Shown: in pieces, positions 48,396-57,746 of the stretch
How the letters are laid out: each line of letters opens with the position of its first letter
Position numbering within the stretch: position 1 is the stretch's first letter
Source: Pseudomonadota bacterium
GTDB lineage: Bacteria; Pseudomonadota; Alphaproteobacteria; Sphingomonadales; Sphingomonadaceae
Reading direction: 5' to 3'
NCBI GenBank assembly: GCA_039815865.1
Contig: JBCBYM010000001.1
Location: forward strand, 3,933-67,932
DNA length: 64,000 nt
Position numbers and translations under genes: made by a program
The notes under the pieces: generated by a model
What the model was told of the DNA's origin: nothing
Databases searched by the model: none
What the model saw: the letters and a program-made list of their open reading frames with translations, nothing else

Positions 48396-48562
48396 GGTGC
48401 GAAGGTCTATCGCGCCTACACCGCGTGCCAAGCGCGTGGGCGCACCCTGTGCCGTTTCGGCGCAGCAATTCACCCTTGGCTTAACCCGGCGCTTGGGGTT
48501 ACACCCCTAGGCAAGCGCCATCAATAATGTATGGCATTAATCATCCACCGGAGAAGGATATC

Positions 48563-48931
48563 ATGAAGACACTTTCAAGGATCGCTGCGCTGGGCGCCCT
48601 TACGATTGCGCTGGCTGCGTGCGGGGGCGCTAGCGACACCGCGACCGATGAAACGCTGGAAACGGTCGAAACTCCGGCGCAAGAGGCGCTGGAGACAGTC
48701 GCCGAAGAACCCGTTGAAGACGAAGCCGCCGCCTTGGAAGAGGTGGAGGGCCCACCGGCTGTTTCCGAACAGGCCGCCGCCACCGCCGCTGAAAAAGCCG
48801 CAGCCGTTGCGCAAGAGGCCGAAGCCGCCGCCGCCGAAGCCGAAGCCGCTGTGAACGCCGCGCAAGAAGCCGCGGACGCGGCTAACAACGCGCTCGATGC
48901 GGTCGAAGATCTCGACGACGTGATCGACTGA
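48563..48931 (+). CDS. acidic Ala/Glu-rich lipoprotein
   Basis: GAAGGA SD, MKTLSRIAALGALTIALAACGG lipobox. Confidence 0.8.
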   Translation: MKTLSRIAALGALTIALAACGGASDTATDETLETVETPAQEALETVAEEPVEDEAAALEEVEGPPAVSEQAAATAAEKAAAVAQEAEAAAAEAEAAVNAAQEAADAANNALDAVEDLDDVID

Positions 48932-48942
48932 CGAGGCCGTTC

Positions 48943-49200
48943 TTGATCGCCGCCGCCCGCCCTTTGCGCTCCATCGCGCTCGCTTCACTTGCTGCGCTGA
49001 CAGTGGCTGCGTGCGGCACCGAGGCCGAGGCGCCATCCGGCCCCGGCGCGATCAGCGAAGGCGAAGCGCGCGCGCTGGATGAAGCGGCGAAGATGCTCGA
49101 CGCGCAGCGCCTGCCCGAAGGCGCGCTTCCCGATGTCGACCCTTCGACCGAAGATGCGCCGCAGCCTGATCCGGCCACCGATACAACCTCCGACGAGTAA
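48943..49200 (+). CDS. small lipoprotein
   Basis: LAALTVAACG lipobox, then an amphipathic helix SEGEARALDEAAKMLD. Confidence 0.7.
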   Translation: MIAAARPLRSIALASLAALTVAACGTEAEAPSGPGAISEGEARALDEAAKMLDAQRLPEGALPDVDPSTEDAPQPDPATDTTSDE

Positions 49201-49231: not shown

Positions 49232-50437
49232 ATGAACGCCCCGATCACGGACACCTCTGCCTTCAACACCGGCATGGACGACGACATCTTCGAGCAGTTC
49301 GCCGAGCAGCTCGAGAAATACGTGCGCGAACGCCTGATCCCCGCTGAAGGCGAGGTGATCGCCAACGATCGCATCCCCGAAGAGATCGTCGATGAAATGC
49401 GCGACATGGGTCTGTTCGGCCTGAGCGTGCCCGAGGAATATGGCGGCGCGGGGCTCAACATGGTGCAATACGCGCGGATCGTGAACATCATGGCCTACGC
49501 CGCGCCCGCCTTTCGCTCGATCTTCTCGATCAATATCGGCATGTTCGCGAGCGCGCTGAAAAACGGCGGCACTGAGGCTCAGCGCCAGGAATGGTTCCCT
49601 AAGCTGGTTGAAGGCAAGATCGCCTGCTTTGGGCTCACAGAGCCGGGTTCTGGCAGCGACAGCGCGGCGATGCAGACTTTCGCGAAGGCCGATCCGAACG
49701 GCAATGGCTGGATCATCAACGGCACCAAGCGCTATATCACCAACGCGCCGCACGCCGATGTCGCGCTTATCATGGCGCGCACCGAGAAAGAGGCCCTGCC
49801 CAAGAACGCGCATGTCAGCGCCTTCCTTGTGCCGATGGACACGCCGGGGGTTTCCACCGGATCGCCGGACAAGAAGATGGGTCAGGAAGGCAGCCATATC
49901 TCGGATGTGATGCTCGACGATGTAAAGGTGCCGGGCGACGCGCTGCTGGGCGGCGAGACGGGCAAGGGTTTCCGCTTTGCGATGCAGAGCCTCGACAATG
50001 GCCGCATCTCTGTGGGGGCGACCGCAACGGGCTATGCGCGCCGCGCGCTCAATTCTGCGATCCGCTACGCGCAGGAGCGCAAGGCCTTTGGCGAGCCCAT
50101 TTCGCGCTTCCAGCTTATCCAGGCGATGCTGGCCGACAGCGAGACGGAGATTTATGCGGCGGAATGTATGATGCGCGATGTCACCGCGCGCGCTGACCGG
50201 GGCGAGAACGTCATCACCAAGGCCGCCGCCTTCAAGGTCTTCGCCAGCGAAATGTGCGGGCGCGTGGTGGACCGGGTGGTGCAGATCTATGGCGGCGCGG
50301 GTTACCTCGCCGAATACGAAGCCGAGCGCTATTTCCGCGATGCGCGCATCTACCGCATCTACGAAGGCACGACGCAAATCCTGCAGCTCCAGATCGCCAA
50401 GCACATGCTTCGCGAATGGGAAGCAGCCAACGGCTGA
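49232..50437 (+). CDS. acyl-CoA dehydrogenase
   Basis: PEEYGG, FGLTEPGSGSD, INGTKRYITN, KKMG, ERKAFG..I..FQ, RIYEGTTQI. Confidence 0.95.
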   Translation: MNAPITDTSAFNTGMDDDIFEQFAEQLEKYVRERLIPAEGEVIANDRIPEEIVDEMRDMGLFGLSVPEEYGGAGLNMVQYARIVNIMAYAAPAFRSIFSINIGMFASALKNGGTEAQRQEWFPKLVEGKIACFGLTEPGSGSDSAAMQTFAKADPNGNGWIINGTKRYITNAPHADVALIMARTEKEALPKNAHVSAFLVPMDTPGVSTGSPDKKMGQEGSHISDVMLDDVKVPGDALLGGETGKGFRFAMQSLDNGRISVGATATGYARRALNSAIRYAQERKAFGEPISRFQLIQAMLADSETEIYAAECMMRDVTARADRGENVITKAAAFKVFASEMCGRVVDRVVQIYGGAGYLAEYEAERYFRDARIYRIYEGTTQILQLQIAKHMLREWEAANG

Positions 50438-50489
50438 TTTTGTCTGATCTTCGGATCGGGTCTCCCTGGTCCGCGACCAAGGGTTACCC

Positions 50490-51734
50490 ATGTACAACCT
50501 CCTTTCCGACCTCTCGCTTGTTGAGGTCTCCAGCTTTGTCGCCTCGCCTACGGTGGGGCTCTATTTCGGGCAGATGGGCGCGGAGGTGATCCGCATCGAC
50601 CACAAGGCGGGCGGGCTCGATTACGATCGCTTTATGCTCACGAAAGAAGGCCGGTCGCTGTCCTGGGAAAACCTCAACCGGGCCAAGAAATCCGTCGCGC
50701 TCGATCTGCGCTCTGGCGAAGGGCGCGAGCTGTGCGTGGAGCTCGCCGCAAAGGTTGGCCAGTGCATCACCAACCTGCCGGAGAAGAGCTTCCTCAGCCA
50801 CGCCGCCATGCAAGCGAAGCGCGAGGACATGGTGTCCTTGCGCATCATGGGCTGGCACGATGGACGCCAGGCGATGGACTTCACCGTTAACGCCGCCTCA
50901 GGCTATCCGCTGATGACGGGGCCCGAGGAATGGGACCCGGAAACCGCGCCGCCCGTCAGCCAGCCCATGCCCGCCTGGGACTTCATCACCGGCGCCTATT
51001 CCTCGTTTGCGCTGATGACGGCTTTGCGGCACCGCGATGCGACAGGCCAGGGCAGCGAGATGCGCGTGCCCTTGGGCGATGTCGCGATCGGGACCTTCGC
51101 CAATTCGGGAACGATGGCCGAAATGCTCTATCGCGAAGGAAACCGCGAGCGGATGGGCAACGCCATCTGGGGCGCGTTCGGGCGCGACTTTCAAGCGAAG
51201 GACGGCACGCGCTTCATGGTCGCCGCGCTCACGCCCAAGCAGTGGGACGGGCTTATCGCAGCGTTCGATGTGGCTGAGCCGATTGCTGCGCTCGAGAACG
51301 AACTGGGCGTCGATTTCAGCGCCGGGGATCGCCCGCGCTTTGAGAACCGCGCGCGGCTGTTCGACCTGTTTCAGGCCGCCGCCGAGCAGCACGATTACGC
51401 CGACCTTGCCGAGCGCATGGCTGCACAGGGCTGCACGTTTGAACGCTACCGCTCCCATTACGAAGCCGCGCAGGATCCGATGCTGGTGGCAGACAACCCG
51501 TTGTTCGGCCCCTCACCTGCCAACCCATCGGGATTTGAATACCCGGCGACGCGATCTTTCGCGAACCTGCCCGCGCATGAAGCCGGCGACCCGGCTCCCG
51601 CGCCGTTCCTCGGTCAGCATTCCGAAGAGGTTCTGGCTGAGAAGCTGGGGCTGTCTTCGGGCGCGATTGCCAAGCTGATCGATGCAGGCACGGTTGCCCG
51701 TTCCGATGAAAACGCTGACTATTCGGCCCGATAA
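50490..51734 (+). CDS. family III CoA transferase, mesaconyl-CoA C1-C4 transferase (2-methylfumaryl-CoA isomerase)-like
   Basis: SSFVASP..GLYFGQMGAEVIRID, LNRAKKSVALDLR, and PAWD carrying the putative catalytic Asp. Confidence 0.8.
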   Translation: MYNLLSDLSLVEVSSFVASPTVGLYFGQMGAEVIRIDHKAGGLDYDRFMLTKEGRSLSWENLNRAKKSVALDLRSGEGRELCVELAAKVGQCITNLPEKSFLSHAAMQAKREDMVSLRIMGWHDGRQAMDFTVNAASGYPLMTGPEEWDPETAPPVSQPMPAWDFITGAYSSFALMTALRHRDATGQGSEMRVPLGDVAIGTFANSGTMAEMLYREGNRERMGNAIWGAFGRDFQAKDGTRFMVAALTPKQWDGLIAAFDVAEPIAALENELGVDFSAGDRPRFENRARLFDLFQAAAEQHDYADLAERMAAQGCTFERYRSHYEAAQDPMLVADNPLFGPSPANPSGFEYPATRSFANLPAHEAGDPAPAPFLGQHSEEVLAEKLGLSSGAIAKLIDAGTVARSDENADYSAR

Positions 51735-51746
51735 GGAAGACCGCTC

Positions 51747-52973
51747 ATGACACGCCGCGCCGCTATCTGCACCCCGCTTCGCACGCCGGTTGGCAAGTTT
51801 CTGGGAGGCCTCTCCAGCCTCAACGCCGGCGAACTGGGCGCGGTGATCCTCAAAGCGCTTATCGAGCGTTCCGGCATCGATCCGTCCCGCGTCGATGATG
51901 TCGTCTTCTCGCAAGGCTACGGCAACGCCGAGGCGCCCGCTATTGGCCGGTGGAGCTGGCTTGCCGCTGACTTGCCGATCGAAGTGCCCGGCTATCAGCT
52001 GGATCGGCGCTGCGGCTCAGGCCTGCTGGCGGTCGCCAATGCGGCGATGATGGTGGAAACCGGCATGGCCGATGTCGTGGTCGCCGGCGGATGCGAGAGC
52101 ATGTCCAATGTCGAGCACTACACGCTGCAGGGGCGGGGCGGCGCTCGCATGGGCGATATCACGCTCTATGATCGCCTCTCACGCGGGCGCTTGATGAGCC
52201 AGCCGATTGAGCGCTTTGGCGTCATCACCGGGATGATCGAGACCGCGGACAATCTTGCCAAGGACTATTCGATCACGCGCGAAGAGGCCGACGCTTATGC
52301 CGTGCGCTCACACCAGAACGCCGCTCGCGCTTGGGAAGAGGGCAAGTTTGACGCGCAGCTCGTCCCCGTCGATGTCCCCCAACGGCGCGGCGATCCCATC
52401 TCCTTTGCCAAGGATGAAGGCTATCGCGAAGACGCCTCGATGGAGACGCTCGGCAAGCTGCGCGCGATTGACGGCAAGCGCGACCCTGAGGCCATCGTCA
52501 CCGCCGGTAACGCCAGCCAGCAGAACGACGCGGCGGCGGCGTGTCTGGTTGTGGCGGAAGACAAACTCGAAGAGCTGGGCCTTGAGCCGATGCTGTGGTT
52601 TGGCGGCTGGTCAGCGGCGGGCTGCGACCCCTCGCGGATGGGCATTGGCCCGGTTCCGGCGGTTGAGCGGCTGTTTGAACGGCGCGGATACAGCTGGGAC
52701 GATGTCGACCTTGTCGAATTGAACGAAGCTTTCGCTCCGCAAGTGCTCGCCGTCCTAAAGGGTTGGGGCTGGAGCGCGGATGACAGCCGGATGGACGCGC
52801 TCAACGTCAACGGCTCAGGCATTTCGCTGGGCCATCCTATAGGGGCGACCGGTATCCGCATCCTTGCCGACATGGCCTATGAGATGGAACGACGCGGGGC
52901 GCGCTATGGGCTTGAGACGATGTGCGTAGGCGGCGGTCAGGGCATGGCGGCGATGTTTGAGCGCGCCGCTTGA
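51747..52973 (+). CDS. acetyl-CoA C-acyltransferase (thiolase)
   Basis: DRRCGSG, TAGNASQQND, ELNEAFA, GHPIGATG, CVGGGQG. Confidence 0.95.
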   Translation: MTRRAAICTPLRTPVGKFLGGLSSLNAGELGAVILKALIERSGIDPSRVDDVVFSQGYGNAEAPAIGRWSWLAADLPIEVPGYQLDRRCGSGLLAVANAAMMVETGMADVVVAGGCESMSNVEHYTLQGRGGARMGDITLYDRLSRGRLMSQPIERFGVITGMIETADNLAKDYSITREEADAYAVRSHQNAARAWEEGKFDAQLVPVDVPQRRGDPISFAKDEGYREDASMETLGKLRAIDGKRDPEAIVTAGNASQQNDAAAACLVVAEDKLEELGLEPMLWFGGWSAAGCDPSRMGIGPVPAVERLFERRGYSWDDVDLVELNEAFAPQVLAVLKGWGWSADDSRMDALNVNGSGISLGHPIGATGIRILADMAYEMERRGARYGLETMCVGGGQGMAAMFERAA

Positions 52974-53821
52974 GCGAATTCAACGCCTGGATCGGGCGCG
53001 AGATGCGCGTCGCCGACCGGCTCGATGAGGCGCTGGCGCGCCGGTGGCTCGCGACCTTTGACCTTGGCCCGGCTGAGGATGGGACGCTGCCTCAGGGTAT
53101 CCATTTTGCCCTGTGCACACCTGAAGCGCCAAGCGCGCAATTGGGCGAGGATGGCCACCCAGCGCGCGATCAGAGCGCTACCAGCTTCCTTCCACCCTTA
53201 CCGCTGCCGCGCCGCATGTGGGCCTCGAGCGCGATTGAGTTTCTCGCGCCGGTTGCGGTTGGCTCGGCTATCGAACGCACCAGCCGGGTCGCCTCAATCA
53301 GCGAAAAGGAAGGCGCCTCGGGCAAGCTCGCCTTTGTCAATGTCGAGCACGATACGCGCTCAAACGGGACGCTGAGCGTGCGCGAAGTGCAGACGTTGGT
53401 CTATCGCGAAGCCGCTGCGCCCGATGCGCCGCTCAGCCCGCCCGAGGTCGGTGATGAGGGCTTTGACACCGCGCCCTGGGACCGGTTCCATGTCGAGCGG
53501 CCAGACGAAGCCCTCTTGTTCCGCTATTCAGCGCTGACCTTCAACACCCACCGCATCCATTACGATGCGCCCTATGCGCGCGAAGTCGAGCGTTATCGCG
53601 GGCTGGTCGTCCATGGGCCGCTGACCGCCAGCCTGATGCTCCAATTCGCCGCGCGCGAGCTGGGGCACAACCGCCTGCGCCGCTTTGAGTTTCGCGGCAT
53701 GTCGCCCGCAATTGTGGGCGAGGCTTTGATCCTGGTCTTTCGCGGCGTGGATGAGGGCTTCGAGATGGCCGCTGTGGCCGCCGACGGGCGGCAAGTAACC
53801 AAGGCGCGAGCACGGGTTTAA
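52970..53821 (+). CDS. double-hotdog (MaoC/FAS1-like) hydratase, mesaconyl-C4-CoA/itaconyl-CoA hydratase-like
   Basis: LGEDGHP, PLPRRMWA, LFRYSALTFNTHRIHYD, LVVHGPL. TTGA overlap with the thiolase stop. Confidence 0.82.
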   Translation: MSEFNAWIGREMRVADRLDEALARRWLATFDLGPAEDGTLPQGIHFALCTPEAPSAQLGEDGHPARDQSATSFLPPLPLPRRMWASSAIEFLAPVAVGSAIERTSRVASISEKEGASGKLAFVNVEHDTRSNGTLSVREVQTLVYREAAAPDAPLSPPEVGDEGFDTAPWDRFHVERPDEALLFRYSALTFNTHRIHYDAPYAREVERYRGLVVHGPLTASLMLQFAARELGHNRLRRFEFRGMSPAIVGEALILVFRGVDEGFEMAAVAADGRQVTKARARV

Positions 53822-54768
53822 TCGGCTGTGACGAAGCTCGCCACTGCCTCAACCAGTTCGGGATGGATCGGCAGCGAGCTATCCGAATAGGCAGCGATAT
53901 TGGCAGCCCGGCCCTCTCCTTGGACCGCTTTGAGAACGTGGTTCATGTCCTCGATCACCACCAGCTCAGACGCAGGCTGCCCGGCGGCGATAGCCTTGGC
54001 ATCGGCGAGCGGCGTCTGAATGTCCTTGCCCCCTGAAACGATCAGCATGGGCACCGTGACACGGCCTGCCATCGCGGCAGGCTCGCGTGCCATGAGATCG
54101 ATCAGAAAGCCCTGAACGGCGGGCGCAAACAGACCCATCAACGCAGGGTGCATCCCTTCGGTGGAAACCCGCTCCCCGCGTTCCAGTGCGGTGATAGCGG
54201 CGATCGCTTCATCAAGGATCGGCGCATTGGCCGGGTTGGCGCGCAATTGCTGGCGCAGGATCTCGCCCATGGGACGGCCCTGCGAAGCGAGCAGGATTAC
54301 GCCGCAAACCCCCTCACGTGTCTGAGCCGCTTCAAGAGCGATCAGCCCTCCCTCGCTATGGCCAAGCAGCCAGATGCAGTCAGCCCCCGCCTCTTTGCGT
54401 CCGGCCTTCACCCATGCGGCGACATCGCGCGCATAGTCCGCCACGGTCACATCATTGGGATCGGCGATGGCCGCCTTGCTGCCGAACATGCCTCGCTTGT
54501 CGACCCGCAGGCTACCGATACCGCGTTTGGCCAAAGCTTCGGCCAGCAGGCGGTAAGAGGCGGCTGTCACGCCCATCGGGTTGTTTCCATCGCGATCTGT
54601 AGGGCCTGAGCCGGGGATGATGAGCACAGTGGGCAGGCCATCGGTGGGCGCGATCAGCGTGCCTGCAAGGTCGCCTTCAGGGCCGGGCGCGGTCAGTTCC
54701 ATGGGTTCTCCAGCATGGGCAATGCTCGCCAAAGTGGCGGCCAGAAGGGGTCCGAACAGACATTTCAT
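53818..54768 (-). CDS. exported alpha/beta hydrolase
   Basis: Signal peptide, GSGPTDRDGN, GHSEGG nucleophile elbow, GGKDIQ, MNHVLK. Confidence 0.88.
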   Translation of the reverse strand: MKCLFGPLLAATLASIAHAGEPMELTAPGPEGDLAGTLIAPTDGLPTVLIIPGSGPTDRDGNNPMGVTAASYRLLAEALAKRGIGSLRVDKRGMFGSKAAIADPNDVTVADYARDVAAWVKAGRKEAGADCIWLLGHSEGGLIALEAAQTREGVCGVILLASQGRPMGEILRQQLRANPANAPILDEAIAAITALERGERVSTEGMHPALMGLFAPAVQGFLIDLMAREPAAMAGRVTVPMLIVSGGKDIQTPLADAKAIAAGQPASELVVIEDMNHVLKAVQGEGRAANIAAYSDSSLPIHPELVEAVASFVTAD

Positions 54769-54769
54769 T

Positions 54770-54982
54770 TCATTCCTCCTTTGGCGGCCGCCCCCGGCGC
54801 GGTTTCGCCGTTTGCTCCGCCTCGATCCCGCGCGCTTTCAAAGCCTCACGCAAGAGCACTTCGATCTGCGCGTTGGCCGAGCGCAATTCGGCCCCCGCGA
54901 GCCGCTCAATCGCGGCGTGAACCGCCGGATCGAGCCGCAGCGCGAAGGCCTTTTTGGCAAACGGTTTTTCGGGTGCAGCCAT
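54770..54982 (-). CDS. Arc/ribbon-helix-helix-like DNA-binding protein with AT-hook tail
   Basis: KKAFALRLDPAVHAAIERLAGAELRSANAQIEVLLREAL, then RRGRPPK. AAGGAGG SD. Confidence 0.85.
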   Translation of the reverse strand: MAAPEKPFAKKAFALRLDPAVHAAIERLAGAELRSANAQIEVLLREALKARGIEAEQTAKPRRGRPPKEE

Positions 54983-55005
54983 GGCTGCCTCCTTGGGTGC
55001 TTGAC

Positions 55006-55908
55006 TTACTGGTAGAGCGTGCCGGCGTTGACGACCGGCTGCGCTTCGCGATCGCCGCACAAAACCACCATCAGATTGGAGACCATTGCCGCGCGGCGTT
55101 CGTCATCCAGTTCGACAATGCCATCGGCGGAAAGCTTCTCCAGCGCATCCTCGACCATGCCGACCGCGCCCAGCACGACCTTCTTGCGCGCGGCGATCAC
55201 CGCATCAGCTTGCTGGCGGCGCAGCATGGCTCCTGCAATTTCGGGCGCATAGGCGAGGTGGGTAAGGCCCGCTTCATTGACGACAATGCCCGAGACCTTG
55301 AGGCGCTCATTGAGCTCGGTGATGAGTTCGGAATTGATCACGTCGGCGCTGCCGCGCAGCGTCACTTCGTCCTCTTCGCTCATGTCGTCATACGGGTAGC
55401 GCGAACCGACCGTGCGCAGGCCCGCTTCGATCTGGATGTTCACGAATTCGCGATAGTCATCGACATCGAACACCGCCTGCGCCGTATCCGAGACGCGCCA
55501 GACGACATTGCAGGCGATCTCGATCGGATTGCCGCGCAGATCGTTGATCTTGACCTTGTCGGAATGGATGTTGTGGGCGCGCACGCTGACCTTCTTCTTT
55601 CCCATCCACGGCCAGATCCATTGCAGGCCCTCGCTGCGCACCGTGCCCTTGTACTCGCCAAACAGCGTGATCACGACGGCCTGATTGGGCTGGATCATGA
55701 AAAAGCCGATTGGGATCAGAACCACGGTCACCACGGACAGGATCAGCAGCGCAACGCCAACGGCGGGCAGGACCGGCGCGAGCTGCATAGCGAAGAAAAC
55801 CACCGCGAAGGTAAGGAAGACCAGCCCCCCCACCACGGTGATGTACCCATTGTAGGCGGAGCCGGGTCGCTCCTGGCTGGATTGAATTGATAAGGCGGGG
55901 TTGGTCAT
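55006..55908 (-). CDS. SPFH/Band 7 domain membrane protein
   Basis: Two TM segments, [52 protein letters not shown]. Confidence 0.92.
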
Positions 55909-55924
55909 AGATGTCCTCCTGTTT

Positions 55925-55940
55925 AATATGATATCATATT
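55925..55940. promoter_or_regulatory. perfect 16-bp AT-rich palindrome (operator candidate)
   Basis: AATATGATATCATATT, 16 bp upstream of the SPFH start, with a further TGATAT copy 11 bp away. Confidence 0.7.
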
Positions 55941-55966
55941 TATATCAAAGGAGGTGATTTGTCCAG

Positions 55967-56740
55967 CTAAATCGGGTAATCCGTGATCGGGCGCATCACT
56001 TCATAGCTCTCCGCCTTGGGGGTGCGGCCGAGCTCAGGAAAGTCGATTTCCGGCGGCTCGACATGGGTATCGGGCAGCCGGTCCAGCAGATCGCGGATCA
56101 AACTGAGCCGCCCGCGCTTCTGATCGTTGAAATCCACCAGCGTCCACGGGGCATGGCTCGTATGCGTGGCGCGCAGCATCGCCTCGCGCGCCTCAGTGTA
56201 AGCGTCGTACTTCTCGCGCGCGGCAAGATCGATGGGCGAGAGCTTCCAGCGCTTCAGGGGATCATCGAGCCGTTCGCGAAGGCGCTCTTCCTGGTTCTCC
56301 TGATCGGTGGTCAGCCAGTATTTGAACAGCAAGATGCCATCGTCGGTCAGCAGCTTTTCAAAGACCGGCGCCTGGTCCAGAAACCGCTCAATCTGAGGCG
56401 CATCGGCAAAGCCCATCACCTTCTCAACCCCGGCCCGGTTGTACCAGCTGCGATCAAACAGCACGATCTCGCCCGCGTGCGGCAGGTGCTGGATATAGCG
56501 CTGAAAATACCATTGGCTGCGCTCATCCTCGGTTGGCTTACCGAGCGCGACGGTGCGGCATTGGCGCGGGTTCAGTTTGTCGCGAACGCTGCGGATCGCC
56601 CCGCCCTTGCCCGCCGTATCGCGCCCCTCGAACAGCACCACGATCCGCGCGCCCGTGGTCCGCGCCCAGCGCGCCATGCCCACCAGCTCCTCGCTCATCG
56701 GTTCGAGGAGTTTGCGATACTCTTTGCCCTTGAGGCCCAT
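55967..56740 (-). CDS. ppk2: polyphosphate kinase 2
   Basis: FEGRDTAGKGG, QWYFQRY, FDRSWYNRAGVEKVMGF, KWKLSPID, RGRLSLI. Confidence 0.95.
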   Translation of the reverse strand: MGLKGKEYRKLLEPMSEELVGMARWARTTGARIVVLFEGRDTAGKGGAIRSVRDKLNPRQCRTVALGKPTEDERSQWYFQRYIQHLPHAGEIVLFDRSWYNRAGVEKVMGFADAPQIERFLDQAPVFEKLLTDDGILLFKYWLTTDQENQEERLRERLDDPLKRWKLSPIDLAAREKYDAYTEAREAMLRATHTSHAPWTLVDFNDQKRGRLSLIRDLLDRLPDTHVEPPEIDFPELGRTPKAESYEVMRPITDYPI

Positions 56741-56807
56741 CTGGCGTCCCTTTTGTCTTGTACGTTTGTTCTTGTGCTGGGACCAAGCTAGCCGCAAACT
56801 GCGCGCT

Positions 56808-57746
56808 ATGGCCACTCTTGCTGATCCTGCGATAGACTACTCAGCTCTTCCCGAGCTACCCGAGGACGTGTTCACCGCGCCTCTGATCCGCCCGGCGCAT
56901 GTAGGCGAGGATTGGCTGGAGCCTGCGCAAACCGCCTATTCGAGCGAGGATCACGCGATCTGGGATGATCTGTTTGCGCGCCAGATGGACCTCTTACCGG
57001 GCCGCGCAGCCAGCGCCCTTCTGGCGGGGCTGGAAAAGCTGGACCTTGGCAAAGGCGGCGTGCCTGATTTTGGCGCGATGTCAGAGGAATTGAACGCGCT
57101 GACCGGGTGGAGCGTGGTGCCGGTGCCCATGCTGATCCCCGATCACGTATTTTTCTGGCACCTTGCAAACCGGCGCTTCCCGGCGGGCAATTTCATCCGC
57201 ACACGAGAGACGTTCGACTACATCCAGGAACCGGACGTCTTCCACGATGTCTTTGGCCATGTGCCGATGCTCACCGACCCAGTGTTTGCTGATTACATGC
57301 AGGAATATGGCCGGGCCGGATGGAAGGCGATGCGCTACAACCGCTTGAAGGCGCTGGGCTCGCTCTATTGGTACACGGTTGAATTCGGGCTCATCGAGGA
57401 ACCGGACGGCATCAAGGCCTATGGCGCAGGGATCCTGTCCGGCCCGACCGAAGTCGTCTTCGCGACCCAAGGCAAGAGCCCCAATCGCATCATGCTCAAT
57501 GTCGATCGGGTGATGCGCACCGACTATGTGATCAGCGATCTGCAGCCGACCTATTTCGTGATTGAGAGCTTTGAGGACCTCTACCGTCAGACGGTGGAGC
57601 GCGATTTTGACCGGCTCTATCGCAACCTTCCCGCCGGCTTCACCTACGCCAACAGCGCGATCATCGATGTCGATTATGTGGTGAGCCGCGGCACACAGGA
57701 ATACCACCTGCGCGGCGGGGCGAGCAGTCAGACCGCGCCTGTTTAA
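56808..57746 (+). CDS. phhA: phenylalanine 4-monooxygenase
   Basis: DYIQEPDVFHDVFGHVPML, LYWYTVEFGL, AYGAGILS, QPTYFVI. Confidence 0.95.
   Translation: MATLADPAIDYSALPELPEDVFTAPLIRPAHVGEDWLEPAQTAYSSEDHAIWDDLFARQMDLLPGRAASALLAGLEKLDLGKGGVPDFGAMSEELNALTGWSVVPVPMLIPDHVFFWHLANRRFPAGNFIRTRETFDYIQEPDVFHDVFGHVPMLTDPVFADYMQEYGRAGWKAMRYNRLKALGSLYWYTVEFGLIEEPDGIKAYGAGILSGPTEVVFATQGKSPNRIMLNVDRVMRTDYVISDLQPTYFVIESFEDLYRQTVERDFDRLYRNLPAGFTYANSAIIDVDYVVSRGTQEYHLRGGASSQTAPV

What the first reader, a model, noticed from the sequence alone, without database searches (positions are those of the whole stretch)
49232..53821. Four-gene CoA operon: ACAD + mesaconyl-CoA-transferase-like + thiolase + Meh/Ich-like hydratase, with no lyase
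Seen: four co-oriented, tightly packed genes. The transferase has the N-terminus and PAWD motif I associate with intramolecular mesaconyl-CoA C1-C4 transferases. The hydratase has the FNxHRIHYD/VHGPL signature of mesaconyl-C4-CoA/itaconyl-CoA hydratases. Established: those enzymes act in the 3-hydroxypropionate bi-cycle and in itaconate/C5-dicarboxylate catabolism, which end with a CitE-type citramalyl-CoA lyase and do not use a thiolase. Here no lyase is adjacent and a thiolase is embedded. Inference: a variant route for a branched dicarboxylate in which CoA is moved between the carboxyl ends before beta-oxidation-type cleavage.
Basis: partly seen in the sequence, partly recalled or inferred. 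Interest (0 to 1): 0.65.

Follow-up and report, generated by a model that had tools for sequence, protein, structure and literature searches.

The report
Thiolase-linked mesaconyl-CoA breakdown operon
A marine Erythrobacter-type bacterium carries a conserved four-gene operon that joins relatives of two CO2-fixation enzymes (Mct, Meh) to a dedicated thiolase and a dehydrogenase; it most likely breaks down methyl-branched dicarboxylic acids, and nobody has yet tested this route.

Summary
Four co-oriented genes (gaps of 52, 12 and -4 nt) encode an acyl-CoA dehydrogenase, a family III CoA-transferase, a thiolase and a double hot-dog hydratase.

- **Transferase.** It belongs to the Mct family: PDB Mct E = 3e-77, next-best family III enzyme 1e-18, and it sits inside the Mct clade on a tree.
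- **Hydratase.** It is 45% identical to Pseudomonas aeruginosa itaconyl-CoA/mesaconyl-C4-CoA hydratase.
- **Conservation.** ACAD-transferase-thiolase recurs in 73 Sphingomonadales loci.
- **Thiolase link.** In 81 genomes (one per genus) this thiolase type and Mct-like genes co-occur in 26 of 31 carriers. A 62%-identical thiolase sits beside Mct- and Meh-like genes on a betaproteobacterial plasmid.
- **Relatives' operons.** They add true methylsuccinyl-CoA dehydrogenases (the C1-specific Mcd or the PA0879 C4 type) and, in two cases, a CitE-type lyase.
- **Own genome.** A PA0879 orthologue and one CitE-like lyase lie elsewhere. There is no crotonyl-CoA carboxylase/reductase, so no ethylmalonyl-CoA pathway.

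Best reading: a catabolic module in which the thiolase delivers a branched C5 dicarboxylyl-C1-CoA. This is oxidised, shifted from C1 to C4, hydrated to citramalyl-CoA and cleaved by the unlinked lyase. This subclade alone replaces Mct's otherwise invariant carboxylate-binding Tyr136 with Phe. All functions are inferred; none is tested.

The parts
49232..50437 (+). Acyl-CoA dehydrogenase 'ACAD1' (401 aa). It is short-chain-ACAD-like and a candidate dehydrogenase for a short dicarboxylyl-CoA.
   Evidence: Pfam ACAD N/M/C domains. Best PDB match is human SCAD, 1e-82. No NCBIfam equivalog is reached. It is 67-97% identical and adjacent to the transferase in all related loci. It is only 28% identical to PA0879 and lacks the N-terminal extension and three-arginine cluster of Mcd. 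It has an Arg in 'AFRS' that aligns with the carboxylate-binding 'GYRS' arginine of glutaryl-CoA dehydrogenase. The canonical catalytic Glu (YEGT) is present.
50490..51734 (+). Mct-like family III CoA-transferase (414 aa). It belongs to a subclade with Phe at the position of Mct Tyr136.
   Evidence: PF02515 full length. TIGR04253 scores 277 bits against a cut-off of 725. PDB 7xkg 3e-77 and 8apq 1e-74, about 42% identity over 405 residues. It sits in the Mct clade on the tree. Asp165, Arg47, Leu43, Arg75, Asn100 and Asp135 are conserved. Tyr136->Phe, Phe101->Leu and Arg104->Lys are changed. Phe occurs in 73 of 73 loci.
51747..52973 (+). Thiolase (408 aa) of the NF004853/PRK06205 subfamily, a dedicated partner of the Mct-like gene.
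   Evidence: NF004853 scores 667 bits, above its cut-off of 551. PDB 5byv/4zrc (annotated there only as beta-ketothiolase) 1e-122. The catalytic Cys/His/Cys motifs (RRCGSG, GHPIGATG, CVGGGQG) are visible. It co-occurs with Mct-like genes in 26 of 28 thiolase genomes, against 2 of 52 genomes without Mct. A 62%-identical copy lies beside Mct-like and Meh-like genes on a Comamonadaceae plasmid.
52970..53821 (+). Double hot-dog hydratase (283 aa) of the itaconyl-CoA / mesaconyl-C4-CoA hydratase (Ich/Meh) type.
   Evidence: Pfam FAS1_DH_region plus MaoC. PDB 8huc/8khg (P. aeruginosa Ich) 8e-54, 45% identity over 251 residues, with FNxHRIHYD and VHGPL aligned. Orthologues follow Mcd and precede a CitE-type lyase in S. 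herbicidovorans and Pseudorhizobium plasmids.

Best explanation
The operon is a conserved catabolic module for a methyl-branched C5 dicarboxylic acid carried as a CoA ester (methylsuccinyl-/mesaconyl-CoA).

**Proposed steps**
1. The dedicated thiolase cleaves a 3-oxo-dicarboxylyl-CoA (for example 4-methyl-3-oxoadipyl-CoA) into acetyl-CoA and a C5 ester. In this ester CoA sits on the carboxyl next to the methyl-bearing carbon (the 'C1' ester).
2. The ester is dehydrogenated and its CoA is moved from C1 to C4 by the Mct-like transferase. The order depends on which dehydrogenase is used: ACAD1 in the operon, the PA0879-type methylsuccinyl-C4-CoA dehydrogenase encoded elsewhere in this genome, or Mcd in relatives.
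3. The Meh/Ich-like hydratase converts mesaconyl-C4-CoA to (S)-citramalyl-CoA.
4. The unlinked CitE-like lyase splits citramalyl-CoA into pyruvate and acetyl-CoA.

**Shown:** gene identities, family placement, synteny, co-occurrence and active-site residues.

**Inferred:** every substrate, the direction of the thiolase, intramolecular transfer, and the role of ACAD1. ACAD1 could instead act one beta-oxidation round upstream.
For: 1. The transferase is in the Mct family: E = 3e-77 against 1e-18 for other family III enzymes. Its clade has SH-aLRT 98, with the characterised Mcts nested among alphaproteobacterial homologues. The catalytic Asp and Arg47 are kept.
2. The hydratase is 45% identical to a characterised Ich that also hydrates mesaconyl-C4-CoA.
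3. Relatives tie the same gene families to methylsuccinyl-CoA.
   - Novosphingobium has SDR-ACAD1-Mct-thiolase-Mcd-Meh, and its Mcd scores 1e-179 to PDB 6es9, which I take from memory to be the P. denitrificans Mcd of PMC5798300.
   - Other variants carry a PA0879 orthologue (64-66% identity) instead.
   - S. herbicidovorans pSHV1 has Mct-Mcd-Meh-CitE lyase.
   - Pseudorhizobium has a PA0879-like ACAD, Mct, Meh and a CitE lyase.
4. In 81 Sphingomonadaceae genomes, Mcd(C1) orthologues occur only in genomes with an Mct-like gene (12 of 12, and 0 of 52 without). The thiolase and Mct co-occur 26/3/2/50.
5. The thiolase lies directly upstream of Mcd in Mct-thiolase-Mcd-Meh operons (G403, G450, G439, G462, G454).
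6. A non-orthologous SCP-x/DUF35 thiolase takes its place in S. paeninsulae, so a thiolytic step is part of the pathway.
7. The window's genome holds the missing pieces: a PA0879 orthologue at C107:1146-2327 (64% identity) and a CitE-like lyase at C275:11644-12558.
8. The literature states that methylsuccinyl-C1-CoA is a dead end for organisms that have only the C4-specific enzymes (PMC12290011). This gives Mct a logical catabolic role.
Against: - No enzyme was assayed and no transcript data could be obtained.
- The operon has no 3-hydroxyacyl-CoA dehydrogenase and no enzyme that makes the proposed 3-oxo precursor. The source substrate is unknown.
- Six of 18 genomes with this operon type have neither known Mcd type. 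There ACAD1 must do that job, yet ACAD1 lacks Mcd's three arginines and is only 28% identical to PA0879.
- Tyr136 binds the free carboxylate of mesaconyl-CoA and is invariant elsewhere in the family. It is Phe in this subclade, so the substrate may not be mesaconyl-C1-CoA.
- The score against the Mct equivalog model is far below its cut-off (277 against 725).
- The CitE-like lyase is widespread in the family (62 of 81 genomes). Its presence is therefore weak evidence.
- The co-occurrence statistics ignore shared ancestry.
Confidence: 0.5

Rival explanations
1. The Mct-like enzyme moves CoA between the two ends of a longer methyl-branched dicarboxylyl-CoA, for example 3-methyladipyl-CoA to the 4-methyl isomer. 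This removes the block that a beta-methyl group puts on beta-oxidation. ACAD1, the hydratase and an unlinked 3-hydroxyacyl-CoA dehydrogenase then act, and the thiolase performs the cleavage at the end.
For: - The Tyr136-to-Phe change is specific to this subclade, sits on a long stem branch (0.53) and always comes with ACAD1. This fits a changed substrate.
- ACAD1 has a glutaryl-CoA-dehydrogenase-like arginine, which suggests a dicarboxylyl-CoA longer than methylsuccinyl-CoA.
- No lyase is linked in the window.
- An intramolecular CoA shift ahead of an ACAD has a precedent in ThnP/ThnO, although ThnP is a family I enzyme (PMC11659651).
Against: - The Mct pocket is described as just large enough for mesaconate to turn (PMC9813914).
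- Ich/Meh-type hydratases make a tertiary alcohol from their known substrates, and this cannot be oxidised to a thiolase substrate.
- Relatives link the same thiolase to Mcd, PA0879-type dehydrogenases and CitE lyases. This points to C5 intermediates downstream of thiolysis.
Confidence: 0.2
2. An ordinary CoA-transferase-initiated beta-oxidation of a dicarboxylate or substituted succinate (bbs-like or dca-like). The family III enzyme activates a free acid intermolecularly with succinyl-CoA. ACAD1, an (R)-specific hot-dog hydratase, an unlinked dehydrogenase and the thiolase complete one round.
For: - The gene classes match the bbs and dca schemes, which I recall from the literature.
- Novosphingobium and S. 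paeninsulae versions add an SDR, and S. paeninsulae also a second MaoC hydratase and a DUF35/SCP-x thiolase.
- Most family III enzymes are intermolecular.
Against: - The transferase is far closer to Mct than to any intermolecular enzyme: 23% identity to P. aeruginosa Ict, 1e-18 to Frc, 4e-4 to AMACR.
- It keeps Arg47 and Leu43, which in Mct replace the gating glycine loop.
- The hydratase is specifically Ich/Meh-like.
- This scheme does not explain the recurrent linkage to Mcd and CitE-type lyases.
Confidence: 0.15
3. A C6 route through 3-methylglutaryl-CoA. ACAD1 forms 3-methylglutaconyl-CoA and the hydratase forms HMG-CoA. A lyase then gives acetoacetate, which the CoA-transferase and thiolase convert to acetyl-CoA.
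For: - ACAD1's arginine aligns with the one that binds the C5 carboxylate in glutaryl-CoA dehydrogenase.
- The Pseudorhizobium cluster contains an HMG-CoA lyase.
- From my own knowledge, the nearest solved relative of the genome's CitE-like lyase, M. tuberculosis CitE, cleaves both citramalyl-CoA and HMG-CoA.
Against: - An Mct-family enzyme is not expected to activate acetoacetate.
- The genome already has a class I 3-oxoacid CoA-transferase.
- The linkage to methylsuccinyl-CoA dehydrogenases is unexplained.
- S. paeninsulae uses an SCP-x/DUF35 thiolase, which is untypical for acetoacetyl-CoA.
Confidence: 0.07
4. A remnant of an assimilatory pathway: the second cycle of the 3-hydroxypropionate bi-cycle (glyoxylate plus propionyl-CoA to pyruvate), or a variant ethylmalonyl-CoA pathway that exits through citramalyl-CoA.
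For: - Mct and Meh are known from the bi-cycle.
- Mcd is known from the ethylmalonyl-CoA pathway.
- Partial bi-cycles have been proposed in other heterotrophs (PMC6593406).
Against: - No crotonyl-CoA carboxylase/reductase is above the cut-off in this genome, and there is no Mcd.
- There is only one HpcH/CitE-family gene, and it is not Mcl-like.
- The ACAD and thiolase have no role in these pathways.
- Relatives' clusters carry transporters, ETF genes and catabolic regulators.
Confidence: 0.04

Closest known systems
[quoted passage not shown]
   Same: Both have a family III transferase of the same family (about 42% identity, same catalytic Asp, Arg47 and Leu43) next to an Ich/Meh-type hydratase. 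The presumed product is (S)-citramalyl-CoA, cleaved by an HpcH/CitE-family lyase.
   Different: - The setting is heterotrophic and catabolic.
- It is linked to an ACAD and a thiolase instead of Mcl, Mch and Smt.
- Tyr136 is Phe, Phe101 is Leu and Arg104 is Lys.
- The score is far below the TIGR04253 cut-off.
- The lyase is unlinked.
Pseudomonas/Cupriavidus itaconate-methylsuccinate cluster (Ict, Ich, Ccl, PA0879 (RS)-methylsuccinyl-C4-CoA dehydrogenase, MmgE/PrpD isomerase; PMC12290011)
   Same: Both have an Ich-type hydratase (45% identity). A PA0879 orthologue (64% identity) is present in the same genome and inside some relatives' operons. Both converge on mesaconyl-C4-CoA and citramalyl-CoA.
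   Different: - There is no Ict: the transferase is only 23% identical to P. aeruginosa Ict.
- There is no MmgE/PrpD isomerase and no linked lyase.
- It adds an Mct-type transferase and a thiolase. This would let it use the C1 ester, which is a dead end in Cupriavidus necator.
(2S)-methylsuccinyl-CoA dehydrogenase (Mcd) step of the ethylmalonyl-CoA pathway (PMC5798300)
   Same: True Mcd orthologues sit inside the Novosphingobium, Sphingobium and Sphingomonas versions of the operon, directly after the thiolase. They would form mesaconyl-C1-CoA, which is the Mct substrate.
   Different: The window's genome has no Mcd and no Ccr. Its operon ACAD lacks Mcd's N-terminal extension and arginine cluster. 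The product would go to citramalyl-CoA through Mct and Meh, not to beta-methylmalyl-CoA through Mch.
4-Methyl-3-oxoadipyl-CoA thiolase (MmlC) of the modified 3-oxoadipate pathway for methylaromatics in Pseudomonas reinekei MT1 (recalled from the literature, not checked here)
   Same: It is a thiolase whose product is methylsuccinyl-CoA plus acetyl-CoA. This is the kind of reaction proposed here for the embedded thiolase.
   Different: No mml genes were looked for or found in the window. The thiolase is equally distant from the PcaF, BktB and PhaA models. The link is an inference only.
ThnP/ThnO of anaerobic naphthalene degradation (PMC11659651)
   Same: The concept is the same: an intramolecular CoA shift on a dicarboxylyl-CoA so that an ACAD and beta-oxidation can proceed.
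   Different: ThnP is a family I (Cat1) transferase. The substrate is alicyclic and the organism is an anaerobe. The two are not homologous.

Membership tests
[quoted passage not shown] | Family III CoA-transferase fold over the full length | tested here: met
   PF02515, 1.3e-49, residues 5-377 against profile positions 1-365 of 366.
[quoted passage not shown] | Catalytic Asp165 in the PAWD motif | tested here: met
   Asp164 of P0002 aligns with Asp165.
[quoted passage not shown] | Arg47 (with Leu43) occupying the place of the gating glycine-rich loop | tested here: met
   Both residues are conserved.
[quoted passage not shown] | Tyr136 coordinating the free carboxylate of mesaconyl-CoA | tested here: not met
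   The residue is Phe131 in P0002 and Phe in 73 of 73 loci of this operon type. It is Tyr in every other family member aligned.
[quoted passage not shown] | 'Cork' residues Phe101, Arg75 and Arg104 that clamp the adenosine of CoA | tested here: inconclusive
   Arg75 is kept, Phe101 is Leu and Arg104 is Lys. These positions also vary in other clade members.
[quoted passage not shown] | Score above the curated equivalog cut-off | tested here: not met
   277 bits against a cut-off of 725.
[quoted passage not shown] | Groups with characterised Mct rather than with intermolecular family III enzymes | tested here: met
   E = 3e-77 against 1e-18. The 44-row clade has SH-aLRT 98 and contains the sequences of 8apq and 7xkg.
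[quoted passage not shown] | Intramolecular C1-C4 transfer without exchange of free mesaconate | not testable with these tools
   This needs an enzyme assay with HPLC or LC-MS separation of the C1 and C4 esters.
Ich/Meh (itaconyl-CoA / mesaconyl-C4-CoA hydratase) | Double hot-dog protein of about 280 aa, homologous over its length to a characterised member, with conserved HRIHYD and VHGPL motifs | tested here: met
   8e-54 to 8huc/8khg, 45% identity over 251 residues, with the motifs aligned. Pfam FAS1_DH_region plus MaoC.
Ich/Meh (itaconyl-CoA / mesaconyl-C4-CoA hydratase) | Genomic pairing with a CitE/HpcH-type citramalyl-CoA lyase | tested here: not met
   There is no lyase in the operon. 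One CitE-like gene lies on contig C275. The pairing is met in the relatives L127 and L128.
(2S)-methylsuccinyl-C1-CoA dehydrogenase (Mcd) | An N-terminal extension of about 170 aa and the Arg252/Arg376/Arg421 cluster | tested here: not met
   P0001 is 401 aa with no extension. It has Asn, Glu and Thr at the three positions. No Mcd orthologue exists in the genome.
(RS)-methylsuccinyl-C4-CoA dehydrogenase (PA0879 type) | Orthologue-level similarity to PA0879 | tested here: not met
   P0001 is 28% identical. The real orthologue (64% identity) is at G000:C107:1146-2327, outside the window.
Thiolase subfamily NF004853 (PRK06205) | Score above the curated cut-off, and a catalytic Cys-His-Cys triad | tested here: met
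   667 bits against a cut-off of 551. The triad motifs are visible in the translation.
3-Hydroxypropionate bi-cycle / ethylmalonyl-CoA pathway (assimilatory context) | Key enzymes of the pathway present: Ccr for the ethylmalonyl-CoA pathway; Mcr, Pcs, Mch and Mcl for the bi-cycle | tested here: not met
   Ccr: the best hit scores 69.5 bits against a cut-off of 378. There is only one HpcH-family gene, and it is not Mcl-like. Mcr, Pcs and Mch were not searched for.

The most novel reading that the evidence does not exclude
The Phe136 subclade is a new kind of intramolecular CoA transferase. Its substrate would not be the mesaconyl-C1-CoA made by Mcd. It could be saturated methylsuccinyl-C1-CoA, shifted to the C4 ester for the PA0879-type dehydrogenase, or a longer branched dicarboxylyl-CoA.

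Together with a dedicated thiolase and a third, unrecognised type of dicarboxylyl-CoA dehydrogenase (ACAD1), it would form an undescribed 'thiolase-coupled mesaconyl-CoA pathway'. This pathway would be the missing sink for methylsuccinyl-C1-CoA arising from methylaromatic (4-methyl-3-oxoadipate) or isoprenoid-diacid breakdown in Sphingomonadales and some Betaproteobacteria.
Probability: 0.3. Interest if true: 0.72.

Novelty: new variant of a known kind. Interest (0 to 1): 0.58.

Why it matters
- **A second role for Mct.** Mct has been a curiosity of one CO2-fixation pathway. A conserved catabolic role in common heterotrophs, tied to a thiolase, would give it a second physiological function. 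It would also explain how cells use the C1 ester of methylsuccinate, which is a dead end for the known itaconate/methylsuccinate enzymes (PMC12290011).
- **A check on metagenome surveys.** Fifteen papers in the library mention '2-methylfumaryl-CoA isomerase', the KEGG name of Mct. Most are genome or metagenome surveys, several of them of carbon fixation. I did not open them to see how each uses the gene. Mct-like genes were found in 54 of 401 alphaproteobacterial genomes, and 48 of 308 genera had one. Where the context could be read, they sit in acyl-CoA catabolic clusters.
- **Directly testable.** The enzymes are soluble and the CoA esters can be synthesised. Cultured strains carry the operon, including Erythrobacter longus DSM 6997, Qipengyuania citrea and Novosphingobium species.

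Tried and rejected
- **Alpha-methylacyl-CoA racemase reading of the transferase.** Rejected: E = 4e-4 to MCR against 3e-77 to Mct.
- **Itaconate CoA-transferase reading.** Rejected: 23% identity to P. aeruginosa Ict.
- **ACAD1 as a PA0879 or Mcd orthologue.** Rejected.
- **Ethylmalonyl-CoA pathway link in this genome.** Rejected: no Ccr and no Mcd.
- **The adjacent alpha/beta hydrolase (53818-54768, minus strand) as a pathway member.** It has only a weak PcaD-like score. It is convergent and belongs to another operon, so I dropped it.
- **Promoter/terminator scan.** No better than shuffled sequence.
- **Contexts of 20 distant alphaproteobacterial Mct-like genes.** Three are next to Mcd, three next to Meh-like genes and four next to acyl-CoA ligases. 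The rest are uninformative.
- **Literature.** A search for the structure paper behind PDB 4zrc/5byv (M. smegmatis 'MSM-13' thiolase, as I recall it) found nothing. No paper in the library describes this operon.
- **Structure prediction.** Not run, because the tool's output would not resolve pocket size.

Full report
**Observation.**
- 49232-50437 (401 aa)
- 50490-51734 (414 aa)
- 51747-52973 (408 aa)
- 52970-53821 (283 aa)

The junctions are a 52-nt gap, a 12-nt gap with a GGAAG ahead of the ATG, and a 4-nt TTGA overlap. Pfam assigns them to acyl-CoA dehydrogenase, family III CoA-transferase, thiolase and a FAS1_DH_region/MaoC double hot-dog protein. The window is G000:C111:3933-67932 of a 2.99-Mb, 312-contig genome. 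Its nearest relatives are Erythrobacter MAGs and isolates. The NAP1_14073 protein of Erythrobacter sp. NAP1 is 80% identical to the transferase.

**The transferase.**
- Its best solved relatives are the two Mct structures: 7xkg at 3e-77 and 8apq at 1e-74, aligned over about 405 residues. The next family III enzyme (a formyl-CoA transferase) scores 1e-18 and AMACR scores 4e-4.
- NCBIfam's Mct equivalog is the best model, but at 277 bits against a cut-off of 725. The protein is therefore a family member, not a close orthologue.
- An exhaustive search of 1.8 billion representatives found only 146 clusters at E <= 1e-30. This is a small family.
- On a tree of 59 sequences rooted with an AMACR-like protein, the two characterised Mcts nest among alphaproteobacterial homologues in a 21-row clade. 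The window's protein sits in the neighbouring 17-row clade (SH-aLRT 99). Both lie inside a 44-row clade (98).

**Active-site residues of the transferase.** I mapped the residues named by Pfister et al. (PMC9813914) onto an alignment.
- Conserved: catalytic Asp165, Arg47, Leu43, Arg75, Asn100 and Asp135.
- Changed: Phe101 to Leu and Arg104 to Lys.
- Tyr136, which together with Arg47 holds the free carboxylate of mesaconyl-CoA, is Phe.
- Tyr136 is invariant in every other member of the family that I aligned. It is Phe in 73 of 73 loci that carry the ACAD-transferase-thiolase arrangement.

**The hydratase.** It matches P. aeruginosa itaconyl-CoA hydratase (8huc/8khg) at 8e-54, with 45% identity over 251 residues. 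The HRIHYD and VHGPL motifs align. That enzyme also acts as a mesaconyl-C4-CoA hydratase (PMC12290011).

**The thiolase.** It exceeds the cut-off of NCBIfam subfamily NF004853 (667 against 551 bits). Its closest structure is 5byv/4zrc, annotated only as beta-ketothiolase (1e-122). The catalytic Cys/His/Cys motifs are present.

**The dehydrogenase (ACAD1).**
- Overall it resembles short-chain ACAD (2vig, 1e-82).
- It is neither of the two known methylsuccinyl-CoA dehydrogenases.
- It is 28% identical to PA0879. It lacks the N-terminal extension and the Arg252/Arg376/Arg421 cluster of Mcd.
- It has an arginine in an A-F-R-S motif. This aligns with the G-Y-R-S arginine of the genome's own glutaryl-CoA dehydrogenase, a protein that matches human GCDH at 3e-167. 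From my own knowledge, that arginine binds the distal carboxylate of glutaryl-CoA.
- This hints that ACAD1 also takes a dicarboxylyl-CoA. It is an inference from one aligned residue.

**Conservation within the Sphingomonadales.** A scan of one genome per species returned 73 loci, all Sphingomonadales. ACAD1, the transferase and the thiolase are adjacent in every locus long enough to tell. The hydratase follows directly in the Erythrobacteraceae. A Qipengyuania citrea plasmid carries the same four genes, annotated generically. Novosphingobium shows instructive variants:
- An SDR sits upstream of ACAD1.
- Between the thiolase and the hydratase lies a 541-aa ACAD that matches PDB 6es9 at 1e-179. 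I take 6es9, from memory, to be the P. denitrificans (2S)-methylsuccinyl-CoA dehydrogenase described in PMC5798300. The residue numbering of that paper fits the chain exactly.
- In other variants that position holds a 405-aa ACAD that is 66% identical to PA0879, the characterised (RS)-methylsuccinyl-C4-CoA dehydrogenase.

**Plasmid records extend the pattern.**
- Sphingobium herbicidovorans pSHV1 has transferase-Mcd-hydratase-CitE-type lyase.
- Sphingomonas paeninsulae has SDR-MaoC-DUF35-SCP-x thiolase-ACAD1 (67% identical to the window's)-transferase-Mcd-hydratase.
- Pseudorhizobium flavum has a PA0879-like ACAD, the transferase, the hydratase, a CoA-ester lyase and ETF genes.
- A Comamonadaceae plasmid has a TTT-family binding protein, an ADP-forming CoA ligase, a MaoC protein, FabG, an enoyl-CoA hydratase, a thiolase, an Mct-like gene and a Meh-like gene, with no ACAD. 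Its thiolase is 62% identical to the window's, although the Mct-like and Meh-like proteins are only 37% and 43% identical.

**Co-occurrence.** I searched 81 genomes of the GTDB family, about one per genus.
- Mct-like genes are in 29 genomes and the window-type thiolase in 28. Both are in 26, the transferase alone in 3, the thiolase alone in 2, and neither in 50. The one-sided Fisher p is 1e-15, uncorrected for phylogeny.
- Mcd(C1) orthologues occur in 12 genomes, and all 12 have an Mct-like gene.
- The hydratase is in 24 of the 29 Mct genomes.
- In genomes with a Tyr136-type transferase the usual order is transferase-thiolase-Mcd-hydratase (G403, G450, G439, G462, G454).
- Of the 18 genomes with the Phe136 type, 8 have a PA0879 orthologue, 4 have Mcd and 6 have neither.
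- In the wider class, Mct-like genes at 35-44% identity occur in 54 of 401 genomes. Of 20 contexts that I fetched, 3 are next to Mcd and 3 next to Meh-like genes.

**The rest of this genome.**
- There is one HpcH/CitE-family gene, at C275:11644-12558, next to accB and accC. It scores 146 bits to the RipC/Ccl model (cut-off 375) and 3.5e-36 to the PDB entry 6aq4, a CitE-like protein. This lyase type is common in the family (62 of 81 genomes).
- A PA0879 orthologue (64% identity) lies at C107:1146-2327.
- There is no Mcd orthologue and no crotonyl-CoA carboxylase/reductase above the cut-off.
- There is one strong 3-hydroxyacyl-CoA dehydrogenase domain gene (C222:24842) and a class I 3-oxoacid CoA-transferase pair (C222:49999-52303).

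**Interpretation.** The repeated linkage of this transferase family with both regio-types of methylsuccinyl-CoA dehydrogenase, with an Ich/Meh hydratase and sometimes with a CitE lyase points to one core sequence: methylsuccinyl-CoA to mesaconyl-CoA to citramalyl-CoA to pyruvate plus acetyl-CoA. The thiolase belongs to this module. It co-occurs with it, abuts Mcd, is replaced by a non-orthologous thiolase in one lineage, and travels with Mct- and Meh-like genes into a betaproteobacterium.

The simplest chemistry is as follows. Thiolysis of a 4-methyl-3-oxo-dicarboxylyl-CoA yields acetyl-CoA and methylsuccinyl-C1-CoA. The itaconate/methylsuccinate enzymes cannot use that ester. Mcd plus Mct, or Mct plus a PA0879-type enzyme, can convert it to mesaconyl-C4-CoA. 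The window's genome has no Mcd, so one of two things must hold:
- ACAD1 oxidises the C1 ester; or
- the Phe136 transferase shifts the saturated ester, and the PA0879 orthologue on C107 oxidises it.

I cannot tell which. ACAD1 may instead act one beta-oxidation round upstream, as the SDR and MaoC genes in Novosphingobium and S. paeninsulae suggest. The source compound is unknown. Methylaromatics (through 4-methyl-3-oxoadipate) and 3-methyl-branched isoprenoid diacids are candidates that I recall from the literature and did not test.

**Rivals.**
The small Mct cavity, the tertiary alcohol that Ich/Meh hydratases make, and the linkage to C5-specific dehydrogenases count against it.
- *A plain intermolecular, bbs- or dca-like beta-oxidation.* It fits the gene classes but not the specific families.
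- *A 3-methylglutaryl/HMG route and an assimilatory remnant.* Both are weak (see the Rival explanations section).

**Earlier notes of this scan.** Several first-stage notes describe the same four-gene operon in other genomes. One follow-up agent described a sphingomonad acd-hbd-mct-mcd operon as a route for methyl-branched dicarboxylates. I treated these as leads. The synteny, Mcd identity and co-occurrence claims were re-derived here.

**Novelty and verdict.** I found no paper in the library that characterises this operon or a catabolic role for Mct. All the enzyme families are known and the end of the pathway is probably the known citramalyl-CoA route. I therefore rate it a new variant of a known kind. 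The new elements are the dedicated thiolase, Mct in heterotrophic catabolism, and a subclade with a changed substrate-binding residue. Everything functional is inference from sequence and context.

Noticed in passing
window 48527-48931 and 48943-49200 (+): Two small acidic ORFs (134 and 85 aa) lie directly upstream of the ACAD. Both have a signal-peptide-plus-lipobox-like N-terminus (…LAACG / …VAACG). Both are conserved in the same position across Erythrobacteraceae and some Novosphingobium loci, and Q. citrea annotates them as hypothetical proteins. Their function is unknown, and it is unclear whether they belong to the operon.
   Followed up: partly
G000:C107:1146-2327 (outside the window): This is an orthologue (64% identity) of PA0879, the characterised (RS)-methylsuccinyl-C4-CoA dehydrogenase. 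It lies on a 4.3-kb contig between an alpha/beta hydrolase and a pyruvate dehydrogenase E1-alpha-like gene. In some Novosphingobium genomes its orthologue sits directly after the thiolase.
   Followed up: yes
G000:C275:11644-12558 (-) (outside the window): This is the only HpcH/CitE-family CoA-ester lyase gene in the genome. It lies next to accB/accC and a TonB-dependent-receptor-like ORF, and it is the candidate citramalyl-CoA lyase. Homologues at E <= 1e-50 are present in 62 of 81 genomes of the family, so it is not specific to the operon.
   Followed up: partly
alignment of PA0879-type ACADs (L137:8865-10025, L138:9824-10984, G000:C107): PA0879-type methylsuccinyl-C4-CoA dehydrogenases have Pro where most ACADs have the C-terminal catalytic Glu. 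They have a Glu in helix G, in the column of PdMCD Arg421. This looks like the isovaleryl-CoA-dehydrogenase-style relocation of the catalytic base. The papers I read do not mention it.
   Followed up: no
L130 (Comamonadaceae plasmid CP099604.1:103413-120594): This is a nine-gene cluster: a LysR regulator, a TTT-family binding protein, an ADP-forming CoA ligase, a MaoC protein, FabG, an enoyl-CoA hydratase, a thiolase (62% identical to the window's), an Mct-like gene and a Meh-like gene. It has no ACAD at all. This suggests an unsaturated or hydroxylated dicarboxylate as substrate, with thiolysis directly upstream of Mct.
   Followed up: partly
literature: Fifteen papers in the library mention '2-methylfumaryl-CoA isomerase', the KEGG name of Mct. 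Most are genome or metagenome surveys, several of them of carbon fixation. I did not open them. The Mct-like genes of heterotrophic Alphaproteobacteria (54 of 401 genomes) could inflate marker-based counts of the 3-hydroxypropionate bi-cycle.
   Followed up: no
window 53818-55950 (-), 55967-56815 (-), 56553-57746 (+): Downstream and convergent with the operon are an alpha/beta hydrolase (EstD-like, 90 bits), a small ORF and an SPFH-like gene. After them come a PPK2 polyphosphate kinase and a phenylalanine 4-monooxygenase. The called phhA ORF (397 aa) has an N-terminal extension of about 125 aa relative to the model and overlaps the PPK2 gene, so its real start is probably further downstream.
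   Followed up: no
L125 (N. aromaticivorans DSM 12444 pNL2, 440751-443194): In this well-studied strain, Mcd and the Meh-like hydratase form a two-gene unit behind a divergent MarR regulator, MFS efflux and HlyD-type genes. They lie apart from any transferase or thiolase on that stretch. This is a handy genetic system for testing the pathway.
   Followed up: no
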